The position numbers and the translations under genes were made by a program. A stretch of 64,000 nt of DNA from an uncultured bacterium (GTDB lineage: Bacteria > Patescibacteriota > Minisyncoccia > UBA6257 > 2-01-FULL-56-20), in NCBI GenBank assembly GCA_963768625.1, contig CAVYIK010000003.1, forward strand, positions 262,715 to 326,714, written 5' to 3'. Shown here one piece after another: positions 6,837 through 54,882 of the stretch. Within the stretch, counting starts at the first letter, position 1, and every line of letters begins with the position of its first letter. The notes beneath the pieces were generated by a model. The model was not told the DNA's origin, did not search any database, and saw only the letters and a list, made by a program, of their open reading frames with translations.

Positions 6837-7283
6837 ATGAGGGTATTGGGCGTTGATTGTGCAAATGTTATTTTCTATCCCTGGAGAATGGAAGCGGTTT
6901 CAGATTCCATTAAAAGCTTGCAGGTTTTGGCACGTTCAAACCAATTCGAAAAAATCTATCTCGTTTCGAGAGCGACTATCCTCACCCAAATTTATTATCG
7001 TTTTCGATTGCGGAATCTTAACCTATGGGAACTTACCGGCATCCCAAAAAAGAATCTTCACTTTTGTTGGCGTAATAAACAAAAGGCTGTTATTTGTAGA
7101 AGGTTGGGCATTACCGATTTTGTCGATGACCGCCTGACTGTTTTACGGCACATGGATAACGACATGCACCTTTTTGCATTCCGGCCCAGTGATGAGGATG
7201 TTGAAGATTACCCCGACGTCTTGGTGCGCGCAAAAAAAGTTGCATCGTGGAGCGAACTGGTCACTGCCCTGCTTAAAGAATAA
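6837..7283 (+). CDS. Hypothetical protein, possibly HAD/5'(3')-deoxyribonucleotidase-like
   Basis: 148 aa and AT-richer than its flanks. It has weak HAD-like motifs (LGVDCANVIF near the N-terminus, GITDFVDDR later). It is bracketed exactly by the tRNA-fragment direct repeats. Confidence 0.4.
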   Translation: MRVLGVDCANVIFYPWRMEAVSDSIKSLQVLARSNQFEKIYLVSRATILTQIYYRFRLRNLNLWELTGIPKKNLHFCWRNKQKAVICRRLGITDFVDDRLTVLRHMDNDMHLFAFRPSDEDVEDYPDVLVRAKKVASWSELVTALLKE

Positions 7284-7286
7284 GCT

Positions 7287-7312
7287 GTGCACGGGGCAGG
7301 ATTCGAACAGTT
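7287..7312 (-). repeat. tRNA 3'-end-like fragment, copy 2
   Basis: The minus strand reads AACTGTTCGAATCCTGCCCCGTGCAC, which looks like a T-loop TTCGAAT, T-stem CCTGC and acceptor CCCGTGC. It is identical to copy 1 apart from the 5-nt indel. Confidence 0.55.
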
Positions 7313-7330
7313 TTTAAAAGCGCGCTTGGG

Positions 7331-8146
7331 TTATTTATAGTACGCCCGGTTTTCTATCCTGAAATCAATATATTGTAATTTCGTGAAGTTGGGCTTGGCC
7401 ATCAAGCTTTCAAGGATGGACAGGTCGTCGTCCGCCGGGAAGCGCAGACTGAAATAGAGCGCGGGACCCTCGTAGGTCGTTATATCAATTTCCTGCAACG
7501 CAAGGTCATTCAGCGCTATTGAATTGACTTGTATACCGCTCGCCGTGAGGACCTTTATGATGGAAATGAGATTTGGCGCGAGGCCGTCCGGAAGTATGGC
7601 GTCGTTCAGTCCGAGTCCCTTTTGGGAATTATCATGGATGGCGAACATCAAACTGCCTTCCGTATCGAACGTCCTTTCAAAGAGGACTCCCTGGTCGTCA
7701 AACCAATAGCAACTCTCGTTTACTGTGGTGCCCGACGTGAAGCACCAAATGGCAAAGGGCTGCCGTTCGGTGACATCCGCAGTGATCGTGCGCGAGAGAT
7801 AATCCTTGGAAAGGGTGAGTGAGGCAAGTTGGGGAATATACGAGAGGTCGCTTGCGGGGAGCGTCGCGGGCCAGGCAAGCATGTTCCCGATCCCGAGAAG
7901 CGACGGCCAGAACGGATGGCCGCGGAGGACGTTCCCCTGAAGGAGCGCCAGGATATCCCCGCTTGGCACTGCACTGTTCCCCTGCACCACTATCTTCTGT
8001 ATGCGGAGAATGGGCGACCGGAATACGAGCCACGCTGCCCCGGTAAAAAGCAGCCCGATGGCCGCAAGCACAAGGACGAGAGAAATGTATCTTCGCCGCC
8101 GCTTTCTCTTTTTTTGTTTGTCGGAAAGATAGGAGTCGAGTTCCAT
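7331..8146 (-). CDS. ftsQ: Cell division protein FtsQ/DivIB-like (POTRA domain)
   Basis: 271 aa: a basic N-terminus, one TM helix, then a POTRA-like start (ILRIQKIVVQGNSAVPSGDILALL). Confidence 0.7.
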   Translation of the reverse strand: MELDSYLSDKQKKRKRRRRYISLVLVLAAIGLLFTGAAWLVFRSPILRIQKIVVQGNSAVPSGDILALLQGNVLRGHPFWPSLLGIGNMLAWPATLPASDLSYIPQLASLTLSKDYLSRTITADVTERQPFAIWCFTSGTTVNESCYWFDDQGVLFERTFDTEGSLMFAIHDNSQKGLGLNDAILPDGLAPNLISIIKVLTASGIQVNSIALNDLALQEIDITTYEGPALYFSLRFPADDDLSILESLMAKPNFTKLQYIDFRIENRAYYK

Positions 8147-8189
8147 ATTGTAATGATAGCAGAGCGCCTGCGGCGCGCCGCTCCCGCTC

Positions 8190-9395
8190 CTACCGGACCA
8201 CCCGCTCCATGAGCGGGTTCAAGCGCGTCAAAAATTCATAGTGGACTGTGCCCGATTTCTGCGCCGGCTCCCACGCGAAGATCTCCTCGCCGCCGTCACG
8301 CCCGATGAGCGTCGCAATGTCGCCCGGGCGCGCGCGGCCCCCGGGGGCGATCGCTGTAAGGTCCATTGAAACGCGGCCGAGGACGCGTGCCCGGCGGCCG
8401 TTCACAATGGCCTCGCCCGCGCCGCTTGAGAGCGCGCGGGGGAACCCGTGCCAGTAGCCGATCGGGAGTATCGCCATCATCATATCGTTCGCCACCCGTT
8501 CCGCCATGTCGTAGCCCACATAATCCCCCGCTTTGAGCTGCTTTACTTCGGAGACGACTGCGCGCCAGCTCAAGATCGGATGCAGTTTGATCTTCTTTCC
8601 CAGTTGCACCTCCAGCTCCTTGGACGGCCAGAGGCCGTAGAGCCCGATACCAACGCGCACGGCGTCCAGGTGATATTTTTGGTTTACGAGCGTGCCACCA
8701 GTGGCTGCCGCGTGTTTAATCAAATTTTTAAATCCAGCTTTCTCAAAGAGTTTCGCGGCCTTTTCGAATTTCCCGAACTGGTGGTCGGTGTAGCTTGGAT
8801 AATTGATGTCCTTCGCCGAAGCAAAATGGGTATAGAGTCCAGTCAGCTTGGATTTAATGTTCTTTTGGCGCGCGATGGCCGCAATCACGCGCGGCAGGTC
8901 TTCCAAATAAAACCCCTGGCGATGCATGCCGGTGTCTATCTTTATATGGAACTCCGGCACGGCTCCCGCCCTTGCTCTTTCTTTCACCTTCGCCAATTCC
9001 CGCAACGCTTCAAAATTTGAAATAGTGATCGTTATATTGTGCTTCGTGGCCTCCGCATAGCGCGCAGGCAGCGTATGCCCGAGGACCAAGATCGGCTTTT
9101 TGATGCCATCCCTCCGCAACGCGATCCCCTCCACCAAGCTGTCCACGCAGAACCCGTCTATGCCGAAGCGGTTCATGATCTTCGAAAACGCAAAGAGTCC
9201 GTGCCCGTAGGCGTTGGACTTCACGACCGCCCAGAGCTTTGTCTTCCCGGCATGCCTCCCCGCGCGGCGCGCGGTGAGCTTGCGGAACGTATCATAATTC
9301 TTCCGCGCCGCGCGGGAATCGATCTCTATCCACGTGCGCAAGCCGTCCGGCTGCGGACCGCTGCGTCGCCTAACCGATGACTTCCTTGCCGACAT
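8190..9395 (-). CDS. alr: Alanine racemase
   Basis: 401 aa with a PLP-lysine region (AVVKSNAYGHG) and alanine-racemase N- and C-terminal domain architecture. Confidence 0.9.
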   Translation of the reverse strand: MSARKSSVRRRSGPQPDGLRTWIEIDSRAARKNYDTFRKLTARRAGRHAGKTKLWAVVKSNAYGHGLFAFSKIMNRFGIDGFCVDSLVEGIALRRDGIKKPILVLGHTLPARYAEATKHNITITISNFEALRELAKVKERARAGAVPEFHIKIDTGMHRQGFYLEDLPRVIAAIARQKNIKSKLTGLYTHFASAKDINYPSYTDHQFGKFEKAAKLFEKAGFKNLIKHAAATGGTLVNQKYHLDAVRVGIGLYGLWPSKELEVQLGKKIKLHPILSWRAVVSEVKQLKAGDYVGYDMAERVANDMMMAILPIGYWHGFPRALSSGAGEAIVNGRRARVLGRVSMDLTAIAPGGRARPGDIATLIGRDGGEEIFAWEPAQKSGTVHYEFLTRLNPLMERVVR

Positions 9396-15399: not shown

Positions 15400-16041
15400 C
15401 TAGAGCGCTTTCTGCGCGATTGCCCAAACCTTCTCATGGATCTCGTGGGGGGTGAGCATCACGCCGTCCGGAGCGCATTCGATCACCTGAAAATCTTTCG
15501 GAAAAAGCGCCGCGATCTCCAAATATACCTGCTCTGCCCGTTTCTGATATGCGGGATCGCTTTCGTGTATGTCCCGCGGGCGCCGCTTCTCCACGAATTT
15601 CGCAGATATCTCTGCGGGTACATGGAGCACGATGTTCAGGTCCGGCTTCGGGATCCCGAAGATCTCGTATTCCAGCCGATATAACCATTTATAAAATGTT
15701 TCGCGGTCGCTTTTACTCTCAATTTTTGCCCCCTGATACGCCATGCTTGACGCGACGTACCGGTTCGCGACAACAAAGCGGCCTTCTTCAAACCACTGCA
15801 GCATCTTAAGTTTCGCGTCAAAACGATCGGCGGCGAAAAACACCGAAGCCGCGTACGGCCCGATGTCTCCCCCGTATTTTCCCGTGAGATACTTCTGGAC
15901 GAAATAAGAGGATGGTTCGTTATATTGTGGGAAATCCAGCGTCCCCAATTTCGTGCCCTCGGGGAAGGCGAGGACGAGGCGTTCAAACTGGACGGTCTTC
16001 CCCGATCCGTCGGTCCCCTCTATAACGATGAATTTCCCCAT
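15400..16041 (-). CDS. tmk: Thymidylate kinase
   Basis: 213 aa with the P-loop IVIEGTDGSGKT and DRYVASSMAYQ. Confidence 0.9.
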   Translation of the reverse strand: MGKFIVIEGTDGSGKTVQFERLVLAFPEGTKLGTLDFPQYNEPSSYFVQKYLTGKYGGDIGPYAASVFFAADRFDAKLKMLQWFEEGRFVVANRYVASSMAYQGAKIESKSDRETFYKWLYRLEYEIFGIPKPDLNIVLHVPAEISAKFVEKRRPRDIHESDPAYQKRAEQVYLEIAALFPKDFQVIECAPDGVMLTPHEIHEKVWAIAQKAL

Positions 16042-42450: not shown

Positions 42451-43951
<1,501 letters not shown>

Positions 43952-43952
43952 C

Positions 43953-44597
43953 ATGGCCTTGCTGCCCCCCACCTCAACCATTAGCGCGACGAGCGCCGCC
44001 GCCGAGATCCAGAAACTGCAGACCGCCTACGGGCCGGACGCGGCGGCTGCGGGGCACTCGGCGTCCACGTTCTTTTACAGCTACCTTCCGCTCTTTGAGG
44101 TCATAAGCGTTCTTCTTACGGTGACCTTCGTCGTGGCTTCCATCTACGTCATCATACAAACCGGCTGGCTAGGGCTCCGCGTTGACCGCTTCCGGGACGT
44201 CGTGTTCCACAGCGACCTTTCCAAGAAACGCGCGAAGGCATCCTGGAGAAGCATCCAGCGGCACTTTTTCTCCGGCGACGATAATGCCCTGAAGGTTGCG
44301 GTCATTGAAGCGGACAAGTTGCTTGACGAAGCGCTCATGGGCGCGGGCGTGCAAGGGAAGGAGCTCGGCGAGCGCCTGAAAAAAATAAAACCGTCCCAGT
44401 TGCCCAACATTGAAAACGTCTGGGAGGCCCATAAGCTGCGGAATCGAATTGCCCACGAGTCCAATTTTGTGATGAAGCGCGACCTCGCCGAGCGGGCGCT
44501 CACCATATATGAAGAGGCGCTTAAACAGCTTGGGCTGATCGGGGAGGAAGAAGGCGGATCTACTGAAGCGGAGCACCGTTCACCGCCGTCACGCTAA
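43953..44597 (+). CDS. Hypothetical membrane protein
   Basis: 214 aa with one TM helix (VISVLLTVTFVVASIYVIIQTGW) and a helical C-terminal domain. Confidence 0.5.
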   Translation: MALLPPTSTISATSAAAEIQKLQTAYGPDAAAAGHSASTFFYSYLPLFEVISVLLTVTFVVASIYVIIQTGWLGLRVDRFRDVVFHSDLSKKRAKASWRSIQRHFFSGDDNALKVAVIEADKLLDEALMGAGVQGKELGERLKKIKPSQLPNIENVWEAHKLRNRIAHESNFVMKRDLAERALTIYEEALKQLGLIGEEEGGSTEAEHRSPPSR

Positions 44598-45510
44598 GAT
44601 ATTGCGAACCGGCGGTGTGGGTACCCGCAAGCGTGACCGGGCTCGTGCTCGTGAGCAACGGGTTCAATGCCGCAATCACTTTCGCATCTTTCGCATTTGA
44701 AACATAGATAACGACTCCGTAGGTGGTCGTGAGCGCGAAGGAGGATTTTCCTCCCGTCAGGTGACCGCTTATGGATACCGTCGTTGTCGTCGCTCCCGAG
44801 ACAAGCTCCGGCAGGGCCGCGAACGAAAGGTTGGTCGCAAGATCAAGGTTTTGCGCAGTGAGAGAAGCGACGCTCGCCGCGAGGGCGGTGTTTGAAGCGT
44901 CAAGCGCCTGCACCTGGCCGCTCAACGAGGCGATCTGCGCGGTGACGCCGGCGCTCTGGCCGCCCAACGATGCCACCTGCGCGCTCAAATTGCTATTTTG
45001 GAAATAGAGATATCCGGAGAGGCCGGCGAGTAGAACGATGATGACTACGAAGACGATTGTCATCACGTGGCCGCCCGGTTTTTTCTCTGTTTTTAAATTT
45101 AACGGCTTCGCGGCGCTCGCCATGCTCCCCATCGCAGAGCCTGCGGCTGCCAAACTCCCTATTTTCGCCGCACCACCCGGAGCGCCCGCTCCAACCGATG
45201 ATACAAGATCGCTTACTTTAATTGCCTTCGGCCCCCCGCCCATTCCCGTTCCCATCGTTGAGGGAGAAAAGCTTCCGGGGGTCGCCGCCGGCCGCGTTGA
45301 GGGCATTGCGCCTCCCGCCGCAGGCATCGCACTCGCCGGAGCCATACCCGCCGGTGCCGCCGGCTTCAAGGCGCCTTCCACTTTCTTCAAAGAATCTTCC
45401 ACGTCCGCCGCCACCCATCCAGCGGTGACGAGCGTCGTCTTGATCGCCTCGCGCGGGATACCGGCCTTCATCTGCGATGAAATGTACTCAAGTAATTGGT
45501 CTTGGACCAT
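44560..45510 (-). CDS. Hypothetical membrane-anchored protein with Ala/Gly/Pro-rich linker and coiled-coil-like region
   Basis: Start trimmed to MVQDQLLEYISSQMKAG at 45510. It has a central TM helix (VMTIVFVVIIVLLAGLSGYLYF) followed by repetitive A/S/L-rich sequence. Confidence 0.45.
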   Translation of the reverse strand: MVQDQLLEYISSQMKAGIPREAIKTTLVTAGWVAADVEDSLKKVEGALKPAAPAGMAPASAMPAAGGAMPSTRPAATPGSFSPSTMGTGMGGGPKAIKVSDLVSSVGAGAPGGAAKIGSLAAAGSAMGSMASAAKPLNLKTEKKPGGHVMTIVFVVIIVLLAGLSGYLYFQNSNLSAQVASLGGQSAGVTAQIASLSGQVQALDASNTALAASVASLTAQNLDLATNLSFAALPELVSGATTTTVSISGHLTGGKSSFALTTTYGVVIYVSNAKDAKVIAALNPLLTSTSPVTLAGTHTAGSQYLSVTAVNGAPLQ

Positions 45511-45596
45511 ATACTCATTGTACACTATCGCACTCTGCGCCCATGTGGAAAAGCCCAAAACGGATTTGAAATAAAAAGGGGCGCCTGATTCTCCAA

Positions 45597-46151
45597 TCAA
45601 CTGGCGCCTCGTAAGTGCAGACTGCTCACGACTGAATTTACGGCCTCTTCCGGAGTGATATTGCTAGTATCAACACGAACGACGTTGCCGTGGTTCGCAA
45701 TGACCTCCTCGTATCTCTGCCGAATGAGGTGCTGCCTTCCAAGCATGCGTTGATCACCTGGCGACATGCCGCGATTTTTCATGCGCTGGTCTTGAGCTTC
45801 TGGTGATACCGTGAGGTATACGGTCACGTCTGGCATCACTATCTTCCCAATATCTTCCAGTTTGGCTGGAAGACCCATCGCCCGGTGATAAACTATCGTT
45901 GTCATCCAATAGCGGTCAACCACTATATTCCGTTTTCGGGCCAACGTTGCAATTTCTTCAGATGCGGCTCGTACCACGCGGATGAAATAGTCGTAGTGAT
46001 CGGCATCAGATGCCGTAGCGTTAATCCGATCCTGCTCAACGCGCATTTGCTCCGGAGGCGTTTTGTAAAGAATGGCGTTGAGAAATTTCGCCAGTCTATA
46101 ACAAACCTCACCTTTTCCGGTACAATCGGCTCCCTCCACGGCTATAATCAC
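45597..46151 (-). CDS. Thymidylate-kinase-like P-loop kinase (second Tmk-family paralogue)
   Basis: 184 aa with IIAVEGADCTGKG (Tmk-like P-loop) and VVDRYWMTTIVYH (a DRY-type motif). It is AT-richer than the core genes and is the last gene of a 4-gene minus-strand cassette. Confidence 0.6.
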   Translation of the reverse strand: MIIAVEGADCTGKGEVCYRLAKFLNAILYKTPPEQMRVEQDRINATASDADHYDYFIRVVRAASEEIATLARKRNIVVDRYWMTTIVYHRAMGLPAKLEDIGKIVMPDVTVYLTVSPEAQDQRMKNRGMSPGDQRMLGRQHLIRQRYEEVIANHGNVVRVDTSNITPEEAVNSVVSSLHLRGAS

Positions 46152-46642
46152 TATTCGCCTCCTTTCTGCGGCAACTGGATTTTTTCCAGGGTCACCTGCG
46201 TATCTGTCTTCGCAATTCTCAGAAGTACGGTGTGCCCCTGTTCTTTTCCAATAAAAGATCTGACCAGGGGTGCTAGGTAGCTGATGACGGGAGGAACCGA
46301 ATTCGGATCGGAATCTTCAAACCCTCCAATTAAATAGGTCTTCGTTTCGCCTCCCACGTCAAGCACTGCAAGATGTCCTATCCGCAACTTGCTCGTATCG
46401 ACAGATACTTCATCGATCACGGCCATGTCGGATATCTTTTGATTAAGCTCGGTGATTTGAGCATTAACCATCTGTTCATCTCGCATGAGCTGTTCAAAGG
46501 AAAAGTTGTCGTGCCACTGATTGCCCCCGACCTCCGCAGCTTCCCCTTTCTGGCTTTGAATGTTTTTGAGTTTATCGAACAGTTCTTGTTTGCGGCGCAT
46601 GATTCTTTCCGCACCGATACGAGTGAAATACAGCCTTGACAT
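46151..46642 (-). CDS. GreA/GreB-family protein (Gre-like, atypical coiled-coil tip)
   Basis: The ATG at 46642 is preceded by AGGAGG. It has an N-terminal coiled coil and a C-terminal Gre FKBP-like domain (IGHLAVLDVGGETKTYLIGGFEDSD...ISYLAPLVRSFIGKEQGHTV). The tip reads GGNQWHDNFSF where GreA has GDLSENAEY. Confidence 0.6.
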   Translation of the reverse strand: MSRLYFTRIGAERIMRRKQELFDKLKNIQSQKGEAAEVGGNQWHDNFSFEQLMRDEQMVNAQITELNQKISDMAVIDEVSVDTSKLRIGHLAVLDVGGETKTYLIGGFEDSDPNSVPPVISYLAPLVRSFIGKEQGHTVLLRIAKTDTQVTLEKIQLPQKGGE

Positions 46643-46773
46643 TCGTCCTCCTCTTATCCATTCATCCCATGAAATAAAGTGTGTAGGTGTTGACTGATGC
46701 TGCTCTGTTCTTATCATAAGATAAACATATGGTCAAGGCTCGGCACCAACCGTAACGCAGGAAACGAAACGTC

Positions 46774-48090
46774 TTATCTGGATAACTTTGAATATAATTT
46801 TTCAGCCCTCGCGGCGCTCATGATTTCCGAACCAGAACCCATCAATGACCGGAAAAAAGCCGACGCGGAGTCTTTGGAGAGTTTTTTGAAAGATATCATT
46901 TGTTTGCCATCTTTCTCTGGTTTATCGATCACTTGCCCCAGATAACGGTCGTAGTAATACCTTGGGGCTATGCTTATGTCTCCGATATCCTTAGGCGACA
47001 ATACATGCGGATCATTATTGGCACTGCTTGCGTCTATAGACAGTTCCAGCATATCCGCGATATTGCCATACACGTAGTGCTCTAGCCCCTCCCGTTCTCG
47101 CCAAGTTTCAATCGCATTTTTGAAATCGGTGGCATCTTCATGCCCGGCGTCCATCCGTTCGAAGGAAAATTCCATCGCTCCGTCGTATAGTTTGTCGAAT
47201 TGATCTGAGTTGCCCTTATATATTTTCCCGCCAGTGGATTCATGAACTTCGAACGGAGCCAGATCGACGGCGGGCATTAACCGATCATCGACAGAGAATA
47301 CCACTGATTTTATCCCCTCGGTTTCGTTGAGCCATTCTGACCGCATCGTGGTTATGCCGAATACGGAGGGCTTCACCGTCCTCAAATAATCTCTCAGCAT
47401 TAAATAGTGTCTTTGGAACTCCTTCTGTAAACCAACTGGAGCGTGTAAGATAAAATATCCGGTCGCTTTTTCTATGCTCACCTCGGCGTCATGATAGATT
47501 TTCGGCTGCGAAGCAAGAAAATCCTTTAAAAACCACTTAGCAAAAGAGTCCCACGATCTTTGCTGATATCGCACGCTTTTCACTTCTTGTAAATTTTCTC
47601 GTGGTGCAAGCACATCCCTATACGCAACAATTCCCTCTGGTGCCAAAACTCGGTTAAATTCTGAAAATGCTTCCTTGATCGCTTTCGTGCCATGGACGAT
47701 GTCGCCGTCGCTGTTCTTGCATCCGTAGGAGCTGATTTCGTGGACGATGGCGGAGGCGTTGATAGCACTGATCGATTCGTTTGCAAATGGAAGACGAGTA
47801 GCGTCTGCGGCTACAGCGCTGACTTCCAATTCTTTTTTAACGGACGCCAGTAAATTAGGCATGATATCCACCGCGATTATTTCTGCGCCATCAATACCAT
47901 CGGCTTTCTTTTTTAATTCGCGCAAAGATTCTCCACCTCCCGTGCCCAATTCGATAACCCTAATTTTTCCCCCTCCAACCCTTGGCAACGAATTAGATTC
48001 CAAAGCGTCTTCAACAACTCCGATCTTTTCTTCAACATTATTACGGATTTGACTCAAATAATCCCCGGATTCTTTGCTTCGTTTCAGCAT
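46774..48090 (-). CDS. Class I SAM-dependent methyltransferase fused to a ~250-aa domain of unknown function
   Basis: 438 aa with motif I VIELGTGGGES, then AVDI, DATRLPF and NASAIVHEI. I recognise no family for the C-terminal half. Confidence 0.6.
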   Translation of the reverse strand: MLKRSKESGDYLSQIRNNVEEKIGVVEDALESNSLPRVGGGKIRVIELGTGGGESLRELKKKADGIDGAEIIAVDIMPNLLASVKKELEVSAVAADATRLPFANESISAINASAIVHEISSYGCKNSDGDIVHGTKAIKEAFSEFNRVLAPEGIVAYRDVLAPRENLQEVKSVRYQQRSWDSFAKWFLKDFLASQPKIYHDAEVSIEKATGYFILHAPVGLQKEFQRHYLMLRDYLRTVKPSVFGITTMRSEWLNETEGIKSVVFSVDDRLMPAVDLAPFEVHESTGGKIYKGNSDQFDKLYDGAMEFSFERMDAGHEDATDFKNAIETWREREGLEHYVYGNIADMLELSIDASSANNDPHVLSPKDIGDISIAPRYYYDRYLGQVIDKPEKDGKQMISFKKLSKDSASAFFRSLMGSGSEIMSAARAEKLYSKLSR

Positions 48091-48105
48091 TGGAAAATTA
48101 TTCTA

Positions 48106-48675
48106 CTATTCAAATCTCTTAAAAGTAAACCACTTCATCTTTCCAACCGGAATATGATAGTGATTTTCAATGACGGTGCGAGCATTTTCGAGGACTACCT
48201 TGCCCCAGTCAAAACCAACTTGCTCCGCGACCCGCTTCAGGTCATTTTCTGAAGGTCCCTCGAGCTCAACATATGTCGGTATTTTGGGCCACGTATCTAT
48301 GTCAAAGGTGACGTCCCCTAATTTGAAAGAGTGACGCTTTTTTTGCTGATGACGATACGCCACCAAACCAATTCGCTCCAGGAATATTTCTGCCTTTCGC
48401 AGATCGCCCACCTCAAATTCAATCTCCTCGACACCATCAGCTATTTCTGATTGGTGATGCTTATAGCTCAGGAAGGCCCCTCTAGCGTTCTTCCTGAGGC
48501 GAACAAATTTACCCTCCGAATCACGCCATTTTAAATCTTTGTCGTAAAAAATAATCTCTTCAAGAAAATCTTCGCCGAAGTCTTTTGCCCCCAACCTCGC
48601 CAATCGTTTTTTGAGCATCTCCTGGTCTATTTCCAAAAAACGAACCTCAATTTCTCTGTGGGAAGGATTGTCCAT
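48106..48675 (-). CDS. CYTH-domain protein (triphosphate tunnel metalloenzyme / class IV adenylate cyclase family)
   Basis: 189 aa with an N-terminal EIEVRFLEI (ExExK-type signature, with R in place of K) and typical CYTH length. Confidence 0.7.
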   Translation of the reverse strand: MDNPSHREIEVRFLEIDQEMLKKRLARLGAKDFGEDFLEEIIFYDKDLKWRDSEGKFVRLRKNARGAFLSYKHHQSEIADGVEEIEFEVGDLRKAEIFLERIGLVAYRHQQKKRHSFKLGDVTFDIDTWPKIPTYVELEGPSENDLKRVAEQVGFDWGKVVLENARTVIENHYHIPVGKMKWFTFKRFE

Positions 48676-48739
48676 GTTATATCTTTATTCCTTTAAAATA
48701 CTACTTAAAAGCCGATCTGACAAAGGTTAATTTCGCTTG

Positions 48740-48815
48740 CGCGGGCGGTGGGATTTGAACCCATGACCTTCCCCGTGACAGGGGGACGCTCTAGACCAGG
48801 CTGAGCTACGCCCGC
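48740..48815 (-). tRNA. tRNA-Asp (anticodon GTC)
   Basis: The minus strand reads GCGGGCGTAGCTCAGCCTGGTCTAGAGCGTCCCCCTGTCACGGGGAAGGTCATGGGTTCAAATCCCACCGCCCGCG, with anticodon loop CTGTCAC, T-loop TTCAAAT and discriminator G. Confidence 0.9.
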
Positions 48816-48852
48816 ATGCTCATAGGAAGTGTATGCGATGGAGGGATATTTT

Positions 48853-51465
<2,613 letters not shown>

Positions 51466-51626
51466 TCAGTCAAAAGTTTTTTAAGGATTTTTTAATGAAA
51501 CCCGGATGGAGACTCAGCTCATCTTCGGTTGTGGTAGCGAAAAAAATATGGCAGAATACCCCGCAGAGGGAAAAAGCCCGCAATCAGGTCTTTTTGCCTT
51601 TAGATCAAAAGAAGGGAGGTGAAAAC

Positions 51627-51764
51627 ATGAAAAATTTCTCGGGAACTCCTAAGAAGTTCTCTTGGAGGATTATCACCAAGCCAAAGGTTTCTGGCTCGGT
51701 TTGCCGCCAAGAGCAGTGTAGCTGTGGTGGTGGCGGCAACGGCAGATGTGGCAGCGCTAAATAA
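51627..51764 (+). CDS. Candidate RiPP precursor peptide (45 aa) with a Cys/Ser/Gly-rich core
   Basis: GGGAGGTG lies 6 nt upstream of the ATG. The peptide is MKNFSGTPKKFSWRIITKPKVSGSVCRQEQCSCGGGGNGRCGSAK. A hairpin terminator follows. The gene is convergent with the YcaO operon. Confidence 0.6.
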   Translation: MKNFSGTPKKFSWRIITKPKVSGSVCRQEQCSCGGGGNGRCGSAK

Positions 51765-51790
51765 CCGCTGCCGCCCCGCTTCTCGCGAAA

Positions 51791-51826
51791 GGCGTAACGG
51801 CACCAGCCGTTACGCCCTCTTTTTTG
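51791..51826. terminator. Bidirectional rho-independent terminator shared by the precursor gene and the protease gene
   Basis: ggcgtaacgg-caccag-ccgttacgcc followed by ctcttttttg. It overlaps the stop of ORF 51810..52334. Confidence 0.6.
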
Positions 51827-52334
51827 CAATCGTTTCCAAAATGTCTTTCGGTTCCATTTCCATCACCGTTTTCCAGGAAACTTTCGAGTTTTTTCCTCTG
51901 AACTCTTTAATCAATCGATAGGCAACGGAGTATCCAGTCCATCGTTTATATTTTTTATTTCCGAAAAATACTTGCCTATATATTTTCATCCCTTTCATAT
52001 CAAGCCTCCCCTTAAGGGCTACAAATTGCTTTCGCGCTTCTTCCCTGGTCAAGGCAAGCGACCAAGGAGCTGGCTTTCCGCCCGCAATCTCTTCTCTAAA
52101 AACCTCCGCAAGGCCTTCCATCGCCATATGAGCTCGAAGCGTGTACCGACGTTCGGGATGGCATCGATAAAATACGAGATGGTTCCATTCGTGAGTAATG
52201 GTTTCTCTAAGAGACGCCTGAGTATAGGAATTTAAATCGATAAAAAGATGCATAGTATAATATGTCGCAAGAGCCGTGACTCCCTTGAATAAAACACGAT
52301 CATCTATTGTGGGAAACCACGGATATACGAACAC
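51810..52334 (-). CDS. HExxH zinc metalloprotease (DUF2268-like), C-terminal part
   Basis: It carries ITHEWNHLVF (HExxH) and LAEVFRE. It overlaps ORF 52304..52633 by 31 nt in another frame, so the two are probably one gene split by a frameshift. Confidence 0.55.
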   Translation of the reverse strand: MFVYPWFPTIDDRVLFKGVTALATYYTMHLFIDLNSYTQASLRETITHEWNHLVFYRCHPERRYTLRAHMAMEGLAEVFREEIAGGKPAPWSLALTREEARKQFVALKGRLDMKGMKIYRQVFFGNKKYKRWTGYSVAYRLIKEFRGKNSKVSWKTVMEMEPKDILETIAKKRA

Positions 52335-52633
52335 AAAAATCGGCGGATCGGGGTGCGGCAGAACCCTATGGCAGTTTTTATTTCGGTATAGATACTCCTT
52401 TGGATAGCTTGTTTCTTTCCTGCCGAGGGCGGTTTATATAATGCGATGTCATTATCGCCTATGTGCCGCAGGAGGTCTTCATGCAAATCTTTTTCCTTGA
52501 GATATCCTGCGTATTTGATAGTGCCGTTCTTACGCATTGCTCCCATAATCAAAGCAACGAACCTTCGTTTGTCTTTTGTCCGATATGGCGTGCCTGGAAA
52601 GTAAAATTTAATTTTTGCTAGATCTGATTGCAT
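52304..52633 (-). CDS. N-terminal part of the putative DUF2268-like protease (or a separate small protein)
   Basis: 109 aa directly downstream of the YcaO fusion gene. The frame switches near 52330. Confidence 0.4.
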   Translation of the reverse strand: MQSDLAKIKFYFPGTPYRTKDKRRFVALIMGAMRKNGTIKYAGYLKEKDLHEDLLRHIGDNDIALYKPPSAGKKQAIQRSIYTEIKTAIGFCRTPIRRFLCSYIRGFPQ

Positions 52634-52692
52634 ACGCTTATCTTATCAGAAAAAAAACGGAGCGGAAAGCATTGCTGCCTTCCGCCCTTAAG

Positions 52693-54882
52693 TTAAGCGA
52701 ACGGATGTGGAAATTTGGTGAGCTCTCGATATGAAAGCGTGCCCTTCCCACGCTCCTTAGCAACCGCGTAGATCCTCTCCATGCCAGCAGGTTCTTGACG
52801 ATAACCAAAGGTCATAGGAACCATGCCGGGAACAACGGAGCGGATGATGTGCAGATTGCCGTTCCCGCCGTATTCATCGGAAAGATGGAGTGGGATCGTG
52901 AGGAGTCGCCATCCTTTTGCCGCGAATCGGTCAAGTAATTCTTGCCATGACCAAGCGACGCTGTTCCCGATATCCCGAAACGCGATCTTATTGCGACCGC
53001 GAACCAAGAAATCGGCACAGTGGAAGTACCGCTTTTGTTCATAGAGTTTCCCATGATCAAGCGGCATTGCAACCTCAACTGGTTTGATTTGTTTCGCTTC
53101 CCCGCTTTGAAGACGTGCAAGGACAGATGCCTCTACTTCCATCAATGCATGGTCGACCGCATGCTCTTTGTCAAAGCTCGCGCAGGACGCACAGGTAGTG
53201 CACCCGAGCTTCTCACTTTGAGCGAAAACGCATATGGCCGGCGCAAGATCAAGAGAATGATCTTTGATATATGTCCGAAACCCTGCTTGCCGAAGCCCTC
53301 GCACTCGCTTCCTGATTTCTTGCGGAAGCGTTTGCTCGAGAATCGACGGGGATTCAAGTCGGGCAAGGTAAGCGATCATGAACGAGTCACGCTCAACAAG
53401 CTCGAGCGTACTTGTCTCTGTCGCTTTCTGTCTGTCGGGATGCGCTGCGACACCCGATGAGTTTGCGTAGACATAGTATGGCGTTTTGGGAAAGTATGGG
53501 AAATATACGAGATCGGCGAGAATATGTACCGCCGAACCCGTTCTTTCGTCATACCCTTCCGTCCATCCATACTCTGCTTTCTCGTCAAATGGCTTGAACG
53601 GGAATTGCCTCACGCGATACTGTGCCGGATGAAACCTCATGACATCTCTTGGATCAATTGCTGTTCCAAGATCGGCAAGCCGTGCTTGAACAATCGAGTC
53701 GGAAATATTCCCACATGCTGCCCACTCTTTTGCTTCGGCGACGGCCTTGATGTGCGCCAGTACCGGCGAAGCATCTCTGCCGTGCGACCAGCTTCGTCTT
53801 TCCGAAACTCTCGCTGAGGCCATGGCAAACGGAGGATGATATCGGGTGCTTGAGGGTACGGCCCATTGAACTTCAATCTTCGGGCTCGAATCCTCGACCT
53901 GAACCTCGCTAGCTTGCGTACCGAACACCACCGTAATCAGTGGATGGTAGTACTTGGGAAGGTTGGTGGCCCCTGCGAGCAACGCGTCTACGAATCCACC
54001 AACCTCAACAGCCGCTACGTTATGCTCGACTGCTGCAAGATTGATGTTTTGCGCTGCATGCCCCGCTTCCAGAGGAACGTATAGCATCCCTCGATTTCCA
54101 TATTTCTCGCCCGTAACTCGGAACGAGCCGCTGATTATGATAGCCCCGTGCGCCTTTTCGAGCATGAGAGGGCTAAGAAACGCTCGAGAAAATCGGGAGA
54201 CATCATCTGATACGAAGCGGAAGCCAACCGATCCAGGGTGTCCGAGATATACGCTGTAAATTGCCGGCTGTAGGTCGCCGGTCTGTTTGAACAGAGCGAC
54301 GTGAACAATCAATGGATATAACGCGCCGGCAGACGGTGCTGTTCTGCGCGAAAATCCATTTTCTTGGGGCTCAAGTACGCCGTACGCGCTCCAAAGCATA
54401 TCGACTACGCCTTGAAACTCGACTGGTGCGCCAGAGAATGAGCGAATTGATTGGCGTCGGGCGAGCAGCGAGCCGAGTAGCCCAGTTTTTGTCGGATAGA
54501 CAATCTCGCTTGGGTTATGACGATGTCGATCGCTCGCTTTATGGACGAGCTTAACAACGTCTGCGCCGGCGATGTGGTTAGGAAAGCGCGAAGGATTCTC
54601 AACTGTTTTCCATGATTCTTCGCTGACCTGACGCGCATCGACAATAACATTCTTCCGGCGAAGAGCGTTGAGTAACCCTTTCACTGCTTTGCGGTCCCAT
54701 TCTTTTTCAAGATTTTGTATTACCTCTTTTTTTGTGCGCGTACCATTGCAAAGAGTGACCATCTGCCGCACGAGCTTCCCGGGAGCTTCCACGACCACCC
54801 CTTCATCGTTCATGTAAAAGGTGGTTGTTCGGCCAAGGATCACGGATGGTGCGGTGAATAACGGCAGGAAGACCTTCTCCAT
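52693..54882 (-). CDS. Tri-domain azole synthetase candidate: PqqD-like RRE + SagB-type FMN dehydrogenase + YcaO cyclodehydratase
   Basis: 729 aa in one intact frame. The N-terminus LVRQMVTLCNGTRTKKEVIQNLEKEW...LLNALRRKNVIVD is PqqD/RRE-like. The middle has RRQSIRSF, PSAGALYP and GNRGMLYVPLEAGHAAQN (SagB/nitroreductase). The C-terminus has ANSSGVAAHPDRQKATETSTLELVERDS (YcaO) and a terminal PHPFA. Confidence 0.85.
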   Translation of the reverse strand: MEKVFLPLFTAPSVILGRTTTFYMNDEGVVVEAPGKLVRQMVTLCNGTRTKKEVIQNLEKEWDRKAVKGLLNALRRKNVIVDARQVSEESWKTVENPSRFPNHIAGADVVKLVHKASDRHRHNPSEIVYPTKTGLLGSLLARRQSIRSFSGAPVEFQGVVDMLWSAYGVLEPQENGFSRRTAPSAGALYPLIVHVALFKQTGDLQPAIYSVYLGHPGSVGFRFVSDDVSRFSRAFLSPLMLEKAHGAIIISGSFRVTGEKYGNRGMLYVPLEAGHAAQNINLAAVEHNVAAVEVGGFVDALLAGATNLPKYYHPLITVVFGTQASEVQVEDSSPKIEVQWAVPSSTRYHPPFAMASARVSERRSWSHGRDASPVLAHIKAVAEAKEWAACGNISDSIVQARLADLGTAIDPRDVMRFHPAQYRVRQFPFKPFDEKAEYGWTEGYDERTGSAVHILADLVYFPYFPKTPYYVYANSSGVAAHPDRQKATETSTLELVERDSFMIAYLARLESPSILEQTLPQEIRKRVRGLRQAGFRTYIKDHSLDLAPAICVFAQSEKLGCTTCASCASFDKEHAVDHALMEVEASVLARLQSGEAKQIKPVEVAMPLDHGKLYEQKRYFHCADFLVRGRNKIAFRDIGNSVAWSWQELLDRFAAKGWRLLTIPLHLSDEYGGNGNLHIIRSVVPGMVPMTFGYRQEPAGMERIYAVAKERGKGTLSYRELTKFPHPFA

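What the first reader, a model, noticed from the sequence alone, without database searches (positions are those of the whole stretch)
45597..48815. tRNA-Asp-adjacent, AT-richer four-gene cassette of nucleotide/RNA-end enzymes: CYTH, SAM-MTase fused to an unknown domain, Gre-like factor, Tmk-like kinase
Directly downstream of tRNA-Asp and co-directional with it are four tightly packed genes with lower GC than the core: a CYTH/triphosphate-tunnel enzyme (EIEVRF signature); a 438-aa protein whose N-terminal half is a class I SAM methyltransferase and whose ~250-aa C-terminal half I cannot assign; a Gre-family protein whose coiled-coil tip (GGNQWHDNFSF) lacks the acidic GDLSENAEY pattern needed for GreA-type transcript cleavage, so it may be a Gfh/Rnk-like regulator; and a second thymidylate-kinase-family P-loop kinase, although a canonical tmk is present at 15400..16041. 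Two points are inference only. A triphosphatase of the TTM fold paired with a methyltransferase recalls RNA 5'-end (cap-like) modification chemistry. Alternatively the set could be a nucleotide-pool or defence-related module. I know of no described system with this combination. The gene set could also simply be unrelated housekeeping genes.
Basis: inference. Interest (0 to 1): 0.55.

Follow-up and report, generated by a model that had tools for sequence, protein, structure and literature searches.

The report
Mobile four-gene Gre-like nucleotide operon
A rare, laterally spread four-gene operon in tiny-genome bacteria always pairs an unusual RNA-polymerase channel factor with three nucleotide-handling enzymes, most likely to make and use a modified nucleotide, possibly against phages.

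Summary
tRNA-Asp (48739-48815, -) is followed by four intact co-directional genes: CYTH, a SAM methyltransferase, a Gre-like factor and a Tmk-like kinase. Their GC is 0.465 against 0.56 in the flanks. The set was found in 0 of 60 close relatives and 0 of 400 sampled genomes of the phylum. Three of five same-genus genomes have an empty site at the same tRNA-Asp, so about 3.2 kb was inserted, without integrase or att repeat. The methyltransferase's "unknown C-terminal half" is a ~218-aa insertion inside the Rossmann fold with no known fold relative. The Gre-like protein is this genome's third Gre paralogue; it has a full-length coiled coil and an invariant WHDNF tip instead of the acidic pair. 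The kinase's nearest annotated relatives sit next to viperin-type radical SAM genes. Distant Gre-like/kinase pairs carry NUDIX, or a MoaA/viperin-like radical SAM enzyme, instead. My best reading (inferred, about 0.4) is a modified-nucleotide pathway coupled to the RNA polymerase secondary channel, possibly antiviral. A cap-like RNA-end role is less supported.

The parts
48739..48815 (-). tRNA-Asp (GTC). Its 3' end is the upstream boundary of the inserted segment.
   Evidence: ARAGORN; Rfam tRNA 62.6 bits. Homology to the congeners' empty sites stops at 48737.
45533..48736 (-). Inserted segment of about 3.2 kb that is missing from same-genus genomes at this site. It holds the four genes and a terminator-like hairpin.
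   Evidence: blastn against the empty sites of G002, G005 and G001: homology ends at 48737 and resumes at ~45510-45532. Gene maps of the relatives. GC 0.465 against 0.561 in the flanks.
48695..48723 (-). Promoter-like site (TTGTCA-17-TATTTT) between the tRNA and CYTH. Weak evidence.
   Evidence: Consensus scan, 9 of 12 matches. The region had 8 such sites against 4.7 expected, so this is a lead only.
48106..48675 (-). CYTH / triphosphate-tunnel metalloenzyme, 189 aa, with intact tunnel residues. Predicted nucleoside-triphosphate or triphosphate hydrolase; a cyclase is not excluded.
   Evidence: PF01928 43.7 bits. Family profile against PDB: SaTTM 7ns8 83 bits, class IV cyclases 45-47 bits. Invariant E8 E10 R59 R61 K72 E84 K112 R114 D127 E137 E139. 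TIGR00318 cyaB 46.2 bits, below the 57.95 cut-off.
46774..48090 (-). Class I SAM-dependent methyltransferase, 438 aa, conserved along its full length.
   Evidence: Methyltransf_11/25/31. GxGxG motif ELGTGGGE and 58 invariant columns. Model pLDDT 89.6, pTM 0.87. Best fold matches are small-molecule methyltransferases, Z 16-18, about 190 aligned residues spanning model residues 1-405.
46909..47562 (-). Insertion of ~218 aa (aa ~177-394) inside the methyltransferase fold. Alpha/beta, rich in invariant Arg/Tyr/His/Lys/Trp. Putative substrate-binding cap.
   Evidence: DSSP strands 170-176 and 395-405 flank it, and the fold alignments skip it. Folded alone: pLDDT 77.7. No fold relative: Foldseek PDB none at E<=1e-3, VIA best Z 5.2, BFVD none at E<=1e-3. 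Only 91 clusters of 1.84 billion match it, nearly all at the same position in proteins of 370-480 aa.
46151..46642 (-). Gre-like secondary-channel-factor homologue, 163 aa, with a full-length coiled coil and the tip motif WHDNF[S/T/A]FE.
   Evidence: TIGR01462 47.6 bits (cut-off 139). The profile aligns 1-146 to E. coli GreA 1grj 1-146 and to Gfh1. Tip alignment against this genome's canonical GreA. The start is confirmed by 8 homologues.
45597..46151 (-). P-loop NMP-kinase-superfamily protein, 184 aa (Tmk-like; the viperin-associated-kinase / PDC-M51B type). Translationally coupled to the Gre-like gene.
   Evidence: PADLOC PDC-M51B 91.6 bits and VakA 48.6 bits. TIGR00041 57.4 bits, below the 83.25 cut-off. 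Invariant P-loop, DRYW and lid Arg residues. TAGTG stop/start overlap.
45570..45608 (-). Terminator-like GC-rich hairpin followed by a U-run, immediately after the kinase stop codon. Weak evidence.
   Evidence: RNA fold -16.9 kcal/mol, but z only -1.16 against shuffles. The simple terminator scan missed it.

Best explanation
SHOWN: a self-contained, laterally transferred four-gene operon was inserted next to tRNA-Asp. Its genes travel together in scattered Patescibacteria as two permutable pairs, CYTH+methyltransferase and Gre-like+kinase. INFERRED: three of the genes form a short pathway for a modified nucleotide. The logic is the one known from viperin+kinase modules and from phage base-modification pathways. 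The CYTH enzyme (replaced by or joined with NUDIX in variants) hydrolyses a nucleoside triphosphate or polyphosphate. The methyltransferase binds a nucleotide in its private ~218-aa insertion, which is rich in invariant Arg/Lys/Tyr/His, and methylates it. The dedicated NMP-type kinase then re-phosphorylates the product, which housekeeping kinases would not accept. The fourth protein is a Gre-family factor with a full-length coiled coil and a WHDNF tip. It is inferred to sit in the RNA polymerase secondary channel, the route by which nucleotides reach the active site. There it would couple the product to transcription in one of three ways: protect the host polymerase by excluding or excising the analogue, let the polymerase use it, or inhibit the polymerase when the analogue is bound. 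MORE SPECULATIVE: the biological role is conflict or anti-phage, in analogy to viperin's chain-terminating nucleotides.
For: Module reality. All four families are adjacent in 8 of 8 informative genome loci found through the methyltransferase, and in 8 metagenome loci, with 4 more cut by contig ends. There are three gene orders, but Gre->kinase is always adjacent, with spacing from -17 to +9 nt. Mobility. The methyltransferase was found in 0 of 60 relatives, 0 of 400 phylum genomes and 0 viral contigs. The site is empty in 3 of 5 congeners and holds other cargo in G004. The flanks differ in every locus. Cassette proteins are 60-71% identical between hosts whose housekeeping proteins are 30-55% identical. 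Nucleotide logic. The kinase scores 91.6 bits on PADLOC PDC-M51B and 48.6 bits on VakA. All 5 of 5 plasmid relatives lie directly upstream of a radical SAM gene; 3 are annotated viperin, 1 'moaA/nifB/pqqE', 1 'radical SAM'. Viperin-linked NMP kinases supply substrate for nucleotide analogues, and some viperins are fused to a predicted triphosphatase/cyclase domain (passages). The CYTH is closest to SaTTM, which cleaves the gamma-phosphate of PPPi and NTPs. Variation. L024 has Gre followed by a methyltransferase-NUDIX fusion. NUDIX is adjacent in L014, L017 and L055. L048 has Gre, kinase, a MoaA/viperin-like radical SAM enzyme (86-89 bits on MoaA models, pVip 28.9 bits), an AAA_28 kinase, and then a type III CRISPR RAMP gene. 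RNAP link. The Gre-like profile aligns end to end with GreA and Gfh1. The C-domain IS..(S/A)PL motif is kept and the tip is invariant in 9 of 9 loci that were not selected on the tip. Jumbo phages combine CYTH/MazG triphosphatases and base modification with the RNAP-directed factor Alc (passage).
Against: No substrate, product or RNAP binding is shown; every mechanistic step is inferred from family membership and gene context. The methyltransferase fold matches are generic class I enzymes, so nothing points specifically to a nucleotide substrate. PADLOC has no hit for the CYTH or Gre-like proteins, and PDC-M51A is not found in the genome. Flanks are mostly housekeeping genes, not defence islands. 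Among the distant Gre-like loci with enough sequence, only 6 of 12 have the kinase directly downstream, and of 8 loci informative on both sides the MT is present in 5 and CYTH in 4. SaTTM prefers inorganic triphosphate about 19-fold over NTPs, so the CYTH may not act on nucleotides at all. In clade A the P-loop reads GKG rather than GK[ST], which is unusual for an active kinase. The GC dip is only at the 6th percentile.
Confidence: 0.4

Rival explanations
1. Second-messenger switch. The CYTH protein works as a class IV-type nucleotide cyclase that makes a cyclic nucleotide signal. The Gre-like factor is the effector that blocks or retunes RNA polymerase when the signal is present, in a Gfh1- or DksA/ppGpp-like way. 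The kinase and methyltransferase make, tune or destroy the signal.
For: The CYTH profile also matches class IV adenylate cyclases at 45-47 bits and TIGR00318 cyaB at 46.2 bits. SaTTM-type and CyaB-type enzymes belong to the same similarity cluster (passage). Non-cleaving Gre-family factors that inhibit RNAP exist (Gfh1, Rv3788), and DksA works together with ppGpp (passages).
Against: The cyaB score is below its cut-off of 57.95. The best solved relative is a hydrolase. CYTH can be replaced by NUDIX, which is a hydrolase and not a cyclase. No recognisable sensor or nucleotide-binding effector domain is present.
Confidence: 0.15
2. RNA 5'-end (cap-like) modification. CYTH or NUDIX trims the 5' triphosphate of nascent RNA, the kinase adjusts its phosphorylation state, the methyltransferase methylates the end, and the Gre-like factor tethers the enzymes to RNA polymerase. 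A variant of this idea is that RNAP initiates with the methylated nucleotide.
For: TTM-fold enzymes include the Cet1 RNA triphosphatases (passage). The NUDIX partners resemble MutT- and RppH-type hydrolases. The tip of a full-length Gre coiled coil reaches the active site, where the initiating nucleotide binds (established knowledge; for the length).
Against: No guanylyltransferase or ligase-type gene is present in any cassette. The CYTH is closest to the SaTTM/CyaB cluster, not to Cet1. The kinase belongs to the free-NMP kinase superfamily. The methyltransferase's fold neighbours are small-molecule enzymes. The secondary channel is far from the RNA exit channel, where 5' ends emerge (established knowledge).
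Confidence: 0.12
3. Accessory housekeeping: a nucleotide-pool sanitation and transcription-fidelity kit (NTP hydrolase, salvage kinase, methyltransferase, extra Gre factor) with no role in conflict.
For: Flanks are housekeeping genes and there are no mobility genes. NUDIX partners match MutT-type models. Gre factors improve fidelity (passages).
Against: It is extremely patchy: 0 of 60 and 0 of 400 genomes. It was inserted at a variable hotspot. The genome already has a canonical greA and tmk. The tip lacks the acidic pair associated with cleavage. The kinase clusters with viperin-linked kinases.
Confidence: 0.13
4. Chance neighbours: four unrelated genes that happen to lie together.
Against: Co-occurrence in 8 of 8 informative genome loci and in many metagenome loci, in different genomic contexts and in three gene orders.
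Confidence: 0.02

Closest known systems
Prokaryotic viperin (pVip) with associated nucleotide kinase
   Same: A dedicated NMP-superfamily kinase is genetically coupled to a nucleotide-modifying enzyme. The cassette kinase hits PADLOC VakA. Its 5 of 5 plasmid relatives directly precede radical SAM genes, 3 of them annotated viperin. It is mobile and patchily distributed. Some viperins are fused to a predicted triphosphatase/cyclase domain.
   Different: There is no radical SAM enzyme in the cassette; the modifying enzyme is a SAM methyltransferase. CYTH and a Gre-like factor are added. No product is known. A distant variant (L048) does carry a MoaA/viperin-like radical SAM enzyme.
PADLOC phage-defence candidate PDC-M51 (two genes, A and B)
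   Same: The kinase matches PDC-M51B at 91.6 bits. Kinases next to distant Gre-like genes match at 101-154 bits.
   Different: PDC-M51A (420 positions) was not found in this genome or among the cassette proteins. I found no paper that names PDC-M51, so its function is unknown to me.
Non-cleaving Gre-family factors Gfh1 / Rv3788, and Rnk
   Same: Gre fold. Predicted secondary-channel binding without the canonical GreA tip. The profile matches Gfh1 structures. Rnk is historically linked to a nucleotide kinase (passage).
   Different: Gfh1 and Rv3788 keep two conserved acidic tip residues; this family has WHDNF with one Asp. Rnk has a much shorter coiled coil, whereas this one is full length. None of them is described as part of an operon with nucleotide enzymes.
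DksA with ppGpp
   Same: A secondary-channel factor whose action depends on a small nucleotide made by dedicated enzymes. It is a functional analogy for 'factor plus nucleotide'.
   Different: DksA is a different protein family with a zinc finger and a DxxDxA tip (recalled). The alarmone synthetases are unrelated to CYTH, this methyltransferase or this kinase.
Phage base-modification pathways (T4 hydroxymethyl-dC: dCTPase, dCMP hydroxymethylase, dNMP kinase, plus Alc)
   Same: The same three-step logic: NTP hydrolase, NMP-modifying enzyme, dedicated kinase, together with a factor that acts on host RNAP. CYTH/MazG triphosphatases are proposed in this role in jumbo phages (passage). The T4 enzyme roles are recalled.
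   Different: The enzyme families are unrelated (thymidylate-synthase-like against a class I methyltransferase). The T4 pathway modifies DNA precursors. Alc is unrelated to Gre. This cassette is chromosomal, not phage-borne.
SaTTM (Saci_0718) and class IV adenylate cyclase CyaB
   Same: Closest solved relatives of the CYTH protein (83 bits and 45-47 bits). The ExExK-type motif and the tunnel residues are conserved.
   Different: Clade A has ExExR and a C-terminal extension. The scores are below the cyaB equivalog cut-off. The substrate is untested.

Membership tests
GreA/GreB transcript-cleavage factors | N-terminal coiled coil of GreA length plus a C-terminal globular domain | tested here: met
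   The profile of 9 cassette proteins aligns positions 1-146 to E. coli GreA 1grj residues 1-146 (31 bits) and to Gfh1. It also aligns with this genome's own GreA.
GreA/GreB transcript-cleavage factors | Scores above the curated family cut-offs | tested here: not met
   PF01272 26.5 vs 26.9; PF03449 14.3 vs 24.5. TIGR01462 47.6 vs 139.
GreA/GreB transcript-cleavage factors | Two functionally important acidic residues at the coiled-coil tip (review passage) | tested here: not met
   The positions aligned to the canonical D..E of DLSEN/DLKEN are Q/T/V and D. The tip reads WHDNF in 9 of 9 loci.
GreA/GreB transcript-cleavage factors | Binds the RNAP secondary channel and stimulates transcript cleavage | not testable with these tools
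   Needs biochemistry. Only the conserved C-domain motif IS..(S/A)PL is seen, and its role in binding is recalled.
Rnk (regulator of nucleoside diphosphate kinase) | Much shorter coiled coil than GreA (passage) | tested here: not met
   Full-length alignment to GreA, with a 2-residue tip insertion in clade A. NF004548 15.7 bits vs 126.
CYTH / triphosphate tunnel metalloenzymes | Pfam PF01928 above cut-off, and the N-terminal ExExK motif with acidic and basic tunnel residues | tested here: met
   43.7 bits vs 23.2. Clade B members score 83-92 bits. The motif is ExExR in 6 of 6 clade A and ExExK in 3 of 3 clade B members; there are 18 invariant columns.
Class IV adenylate cyclase (CyaB) | Equivalog score TIGR00318 | tested here: not met
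   46.2 bits vs 57.95. The best solved relative is the hydrolase SaTTM. Cyclase activity itself cannot be tested here.
dTMP kinase (Tmk) | Equivalog score TIGR00041; the sole thymidylate kinase of the genome | tested here: not met
   57.4 bits vs 83.25. A canonical tmk scores 82.6 bits on PF02223 elsewhere in the window. Superfamily membership is met (PF02223 53.8 vs 27).
PADLOC candidate PDC-M51 | Both components A and B present | tested here: not met
   B matches at 91.6 bits. A has no match among the cassette proteins or in the genome (the genome is rated 64% complete).
Prokaryotic viperin system | Viperin radical SAM enzyme present | tested here: not met
   No radical SAM or pVip hit among the four proteins. 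Only the kinase resembles VakA (48.6 bits).
Class I SAM-dependent methyltransferases | Rossmann-like fold with the GxGxG SAM motif; Pfam above cut-off | tested here: met
   Methyltransf_11 43.6 vs 21.2. ELGTGGGE is invariant. Fold Z 16-18 to many class I enzymes.
mRNA capping apparatus (TTM triphosphatase + guanylyltransferase + cap methyltransferase) | A guanylyltransferase (nucleotidyl transferase) component | tested here: not met
   The cassette has only four families in all 8 genome loci. None of the flanking genes scanned is such an enzyme.
mRNA capping apparatus (TTM triphosphatase + guanylyltransferase + cap methyltransferase) | Cet1-type RNA triphosphatase subfamily | tested here: inconclusive
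   The listed solved relatives are SaTTM, archaeal CYTH proteins, CyaB, TTM1 and YgiF. No Cet1 appears at E<=0.01, but a sequence search cannot exclude it.
tRNA-targeted integrative genomic island | Integrase gene and a direct repeat of the tRNA 3' end | tested here: not met
   No second copy of the 21-nt tRNA 3' end with up to 3 mismatches in 64 kb. None of the 20 largest repeat families involves the tRNA. The neighbours are ligA and a membrane protein.
tRNA-targeted integrative genomic island | Absent from close relatives at the same site | tested here: met
   The site is empty in G001, G002 and G005, holds different cargo in G004 and is rearranged in G003.

The most novel reading that the evidence does not exclude
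The operon is a new kind of transcription-targeted immunity. It makes a methylated nucleoside triphosphate that poisons or terminates RNA synthesis by an invader's polymerase. The WHDNF Gre-like factor is the matching immunity or proofreading partner for the host's own polymerase, either excluding the analogue at the secondary channel or excising it from the 3' end. Alternatively, the factor lets the host polymerase start RNAs with the methylated nucleotide, which would amount to a bacterial cap made at initiation. Either way, WHDNF Gre-like factors paired with PDC-M51B-type kinases would define a broad class of modules. The nucleotide-modifying enzyme would be interchangeable: methyltransferase+CYTH, methyltransferase-NUDIX, or a MoaA/viperin-like radical SAM enzyme.
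Probability: 0.15. Interest if true: 0.85.

Novelty: new variant of a known kind. Interest (0 to 1): 0.66.

Why it matters
Gre-family proteins are known as general transcription factors (passages). Here a distinct subfamily with an invariant aromatic/His tip is consistently wired to nucleotide-handling enzymes, and it moves between genomes as a unit. If the inferred logic holds, the RNA polymerase secondary channel is a hub for a mobile, possibly antiviral, nucleotide-analogue system. That would extend the viperin principle to SAM-dependent chemistry and would give a function to a PADLOC candidate kinase family. It would also be one of the few accessory systems described in Patescibacteria, whose small genomes carry little that is dispensable. 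The methyltransferase insertion is a domain with no known fold relative. All four proteins are small and look suitable for direct biochemical tests.

Tried and rejected
att site: the repeat finder on 44500-49300 showed no repeat involving the tRNA among the 20 families shown of 50. A 21-nt tRNA 3'-end pattern with up to 3 mismatches matched only the tRNA itself.

Defence annotation: PADLOC had no hit for the CYTH or Gre-like proteins, and the methyltransferase hit (mad2, 23.6 bits) covers only the generic MTase domain. PDC-M51A was not found in the genome. PDLC04691 turned out to be an unrelated model, PDC-M52A.

Phage origin: no viral contig encodes the methyltransferase. One viral contig has a distant Gre-like gene. 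There was no phage record for the Gre-like protein, and only 3 weak phage Tmk hits for the kinase.

Structure and sequence of the methyltransferase: no PDB sequence relative at E<=0.01. For the insertion, the ESM Atlas gave scores below 0.9, Foldseek PDB gave nothing at E<=1e-3, VIA-wide gave a best Z of 5.2, and BFVD gave nothing at E<=1e-3. This does not show that the fold is new.

Binding of the Gre-like protein to the kinase: complex prediction gave no verdict (ipSAE 0.01, 0.01; mark 0.32). It is neither for nor against binding.

Other negative results: plasmid searches with the distant L049 Gre-like protein and kinase found nothing. hhalign found no kinase signal in L024's 167-aa ORF, and only P-loop-level similarity for L046's 239-aa and L037's 183-aa ORFs. 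Rfam at E<=0.1 found only the tRNA. The 131-nt MT-Gre spacer has no structure beyond shuffles (z 0.19). The terminator-like hairpin is not significant (z -1.16).

Literature: no paper holds 'PDC-M51'. The only paper holding CYTH+GreA+methyltransferase+thymidylate kinase is an unrelated jumbo-phage description in which 'GreA' matched 'greatly'. The 'VakA' search returned unrelated papers. The searches returned nothing that describes this gene set. My reading of VakA as 'viperin-associated kinase' is inferred from the PADLOC pVip model descriptions and the plasmid contexts, not from a paper. Supplementary tables of the viperin preprint (kinase neighbourhoods) were not seen and might list Gre-like neighbours.

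Rows dropped before counting: I dropped three near-duplicate metagenome loci (L038, L042, L050) before the counts. L021 may be the same population as L011, and L019 may be near L010. L015 was excluded as uninformative because its contig ends about 100 nt after the methyltransferase gene.

Full report
OBSERVATION. The window carries tRNA-Asp(GTC) at 48739-48815 on the minus strand (Rfam). Four intact minus-strand ORFs lie directly downstream: a CYTH protein (48106-48675), a 438-aa methyltransferase (46774-48090), a Gre-like protein (ORF 46151-46717) and a P-loop kinase (45597-46151). The cassette has 0.465 GC against 0.561 in the 5-kb flanks and 0.548 for the 749-kb genome. 6.4% of 1481 same-size genome windows are as low or lower, so the dip is real but modest. 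Reading the junctions: CYTH and the methyltransferase are 15 nt apart. The Gre-like stop and the kinase GTG start overlap (TAGTG). The Gre-like gene most likely starts at Met26 (46642, 163 aa), behind an AGAGGAGG ribosome-binding site. All eight homologues start at that position.

THE FOUR GENES ARE ONE UNIT. The methyltransferase is the most distinctive protein. It has 51 relatives at E<=0.001 in a 5.8-billion-protein collection, at up to 61% identity. A pattern scan of 185,579 species genomes with their alignment returned nine loci. tblastn, Pfam and my own profile searches show that all eight loci with enough sequence carry all four families side by side. The ninth, L015, ends about 100 nt after the methyltransferase gene. 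Three gene orders occur: CYTH-MT-Gre-Kin (window, L009, L012), Gre-Kin-CYTH-MT (L010, L011, L017) and MT-CYTH-Gre-Kin (L013, L014, L016). So the unit consists of two pairs that can be permuted but stay linked. Gre->Kin always has the same order, with spacing from -17 to +9 nt.

IT IS ACCESSORY AND LATERALLY MOVED. The methyltransferase was found in 0 of 60 relatives (5 same genus, 31 same family, 24 same order) and in 0 of 400 other genomes sampled across the phylum. It was found on no viral contig. All five same-genus genomes keep the ligA-tRNA-Asp junction. In G002, G005 and G001 only about 250-860 nt separate the tRNA from the homologue of the next core gene (the 346-aa membrane protein). 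G004 has a different ~3-kb insert there, and G003 has other small genes, two of them at 0.42 GC. Homology to the empty sites stops at window 48737 and resumes at ~45510-45532, so about 3.2 kb was inserted at a variable hotspot. There is no integrase and no repeat of the tRNA end. The flanks of the cassette differ in every locus and are housekeeping genes such as dnaX, nusA, yidC and glycosyltransferases. tRNA genes lie within 1 kb in L010 and L012. For the hosts of clade A cassettes, housekeeping proteins are 30-55% identical to this genome's orthologues, while the cassette's CYTH, Gre and kinase are 60-71% identical. For clade B hosts there is no such excess. The cassette's GC stays at 0.37-0.48 whatever the host.

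THE PARTS. CYTH: the tunnel residues are invariant across two subfamilies that share only ~22% identity. The motif is ExExR in clade A and ExExK in clade B. The closest solved relative is the archaeal triphosphatase SaTTM (83 bits), ahead of class IV adenylate cyclases (45-47 bits). The cyaB equivalog score is below its cut-off. SaTTM cleaves the gamma-phosphate of PPPi and, about 19-fold less well, of NTPs (passages).

Methyltransferase: the AlphaFold model is confident (pLDDT 89.6, pTM 0.87). Fold matches (Z 16-18, about 190 aligned residues) span model residues 1-405 and are small-molecule and natural-product methyltransferases. Together with the DSSP strands at 170-176 and 395-405, this shows that the 'unknown half' is a ~218-aa insertion inside the Rossmann fold (my inference). 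It has invariant QRHY..RD, W..RE..E.Y, R.YY..YL and PE..GKQ motifs. Folded alone (pLDDT 77.7) it has no convincing relative in the PDB or BFVD. An exhaustive profile search found only 91 clusters among 1.84 billion representatives, nearly all with the insertion at the same position in proteins of 370-480 aa.

Gre-like: the genome has a canonical greA (164 bits) and a second paralogue (113 bits); this one scores 48 bits. Its family profile aligns end to end with E. coli GreA and with Gfh1, so the coiled coil is full length, unlike Rnk (passage). The two acidic tip residues typical of these factors are replaced. The tip reads WHDNF[S/T/A]FE in all nine loci that were found through the methyltransferase.

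Kinase: it is below the Tmk equivalog cut-off and only weakly like solved Tmk, Cmk or Fap7-type kinases (<=44 bits). It scores 91.6 bits on the PADLOC candidate PDC-M51B and 48.6 bits on VakA. PDC-M51A is not in the genome.

CONTEXT THAT POINTS TO NUCLEOTIDE CHEMISTRY. On plasmids the kinase has five relatives (24.5-28% identity). In all five, the next gene is a radical SAM enzyme: three are annotated as viperin, one as moaA/nifB/pqqE, one as radical SAM. [quoted passage not shown]

A metagenome scan seeded on the Gre-like family returned 36 loci, and a viral scan returned one. This scan was seeded on the tip motif, so the tip's constancy there (45 of 45 rows) is not independent evidence. The close relatives again carry all four genes wherever the contig allows. 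Of 20 non-duplicate loci with at least 600 nt downstream, 13 have the kinase directly after the Gre-like gene (7 of 8 close, 6 of 12 distant). Of 8 loci informative on both sides, 5 have the methyltransferase, 4 have CYTH and 5 have the kinase.

The variants are informative. L024 has the Gre-like gene followed by a methyltransferase-NUDIX fusion. NUDIX genes abut the cassette in L014 and L017, and abut the Gre-like gene of the viral contig L055. L048 has Gre-like, kinase (141 bits on PDC-M51B), a radical SAM enzyme closest to MoaA models (86-89 bits, below their cut-offs) with weak viperin similarity (28.9 bits), and an AAA_28 kinase, followed by a type III CRISPR RAMP gene. L047, L049 and L054 have an AAA_28 kinase upstream of the Gre-like gene. 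So a core of a WHDNF Gre-like factor and a PDC-M51B-type kinase is combined with interchangeable enzymes that act on nucleoside polyphosphates.

MECHANISM. Shown: a conserved, mobile operon. Inferred: CYTH (or NUDIX) hydrolyses an NTP or polyphosphate, the methyltransferase methylates a nucleotide held by its insertion, and the dedicated kinase re-phosphorylates the product. This is the same logic as viperin+kinase. It is also the logic of phage base-modification pathways, where CYTH or MazG triphosphatases are proposed to remove unmodified NTPs and an RNAP-directed factor (Alc) accompanies the pathway (passage of PMC7824862; the T4 enzyme roles are recalled). The Gre-like factor is inferred to occupy the secondary channel and link the product to transcription, as an immunity or proofreading factor, as a co-factor, or as an inhibitor. 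I put about 0.4 on this reading, with the antiviral role as its more speculative part.

Against it: nothing is assayed. The methyltransferase fold hits are generic. The flanks are not defence islands. SaTTM prefers inorganic triphosphate. Clade A kinases have GKG instead of GK[ST] in the P-loop. The association loosens among distant relatives.

Rivals: a cyclase-based signal with the Gre-like factor as effector (0.15); RNA 5'-end or cap-like chemistry (0.12), which lacks a guanylyltransferase and fits the kinase type poorly; accessory nucleotide sanitation and fidelity (0.13); chance neighbours (0.02).

NOVELTY. I found no paper that describes this gene set or names PDC-M51. Supplements were closed. 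All the parts belong to known superfamilies, and the logic resembles viperin+kinase modules, so I rate it a new variant of a known kind. The consistent recruitment of a Gre-family factor, and the methyltransferase insertion, are the new elements.

Noticed in passing
G004 (L068:87-3169) and G003 (L064:~6900-9340): The flank of tRNA-Asp is a variable hotspot in this genus. G004 carries a different ~3-kb insert (339-aa and 377-aa ORFs, the latter at 0.46 GC). G003 carries several small ORFs, two at 0.42 GC, in place of the cassette. Their functions were not examined.
   Followed up: partly
window 42700-43951 (+): The amidase/GatA-like gene upstream of the region appears spread over at least three reading frames (ORFs 42743-43033, 42703-43398, 43395-43688, 43334-43951; the GatA motifs are recognised from recall). 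This may be indel error in the assembly. That would fit the low completeness estimate (64%) for a 3-contig genome whose congeners score 85-99%. The four cassette genes are intact.
   Followed up: no
window 43953-44597 (+): A 214-aa ORF with a hydrophobic N-terminal segment has weak HEPN hits (HEPN_Swt1 and Cthe2314, E about 0.04) and contains RNRIAHES, an Rx4H-like motif. It lies in GC-normal core DNA.
   Followed up: no
window 51500-52800: A second low-GC patch (0.44-0.47) on the other side of ligA includes a 174-aa ORF at 51810-52334 (-). It was not analysed.
   Followed up: no
G000 C3:70111-70551 (L002:1450-1947): The genome's second Gre paralogue (113 bits, below the cut-off of 139) has the tip YGDRSDNAAY, with two Asp residues instead of D..E, and a 13-residue N-terminal extension. 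It may be a Gfh1-like factor.
   Followed up: no
L048:6001-10742 (near-duplicate L050): A high-GC metagenome locus has a distant Gre-like gene, a PDC-M51B-type kinase, a MoaA/viperin-like radical SAM enzyme, an AAA_28 kinase and then a Cmr1/Csm3-type RAMP protein. This may be a related module inside a defence neighbourhood.
   Followed up: partly
L024:5989-9839: The Gre-like gene is followed by a 479-aa methyltransferase-NUDIX fusion. The NUDIX part hits PADLOC PDC-S07 at 64.6 bits and MutT-type models. Next come a 167-aa ORF with no family and a second methyltransferase. No kinase was detected.
   Followed up: partly
L016:2302-3414 and L028:4248-5419: Two relatives have damaged methyltransferase genes. 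L016 encodes 370 aa and lacks about 87 residues of the insertion (tblastn segments 1-239 and 327-409). In L028 the gene is split into two overlapping ORFs.
   Followed up: no
L011, L014, L016 (record titles): Three cassette-bearing contigs come from MAGs labelled Gammaproteobacteria or Bdellovibrionales. Either these short contigs were mis-binned or the module occurs outside Patescibacteria. The distant Gre-like loci range from 0.26 to 0.70 GC, so the wider family is clearly not confined to one phylum.
   Followed up: no
L015:7099-7710 and L016:1904-2260: A NERD nuclease-related gene (87 bits) and a UPF0102/NERD-like gene lie immediately upstream of the methyltransferase in two loci.
   Followed up: no
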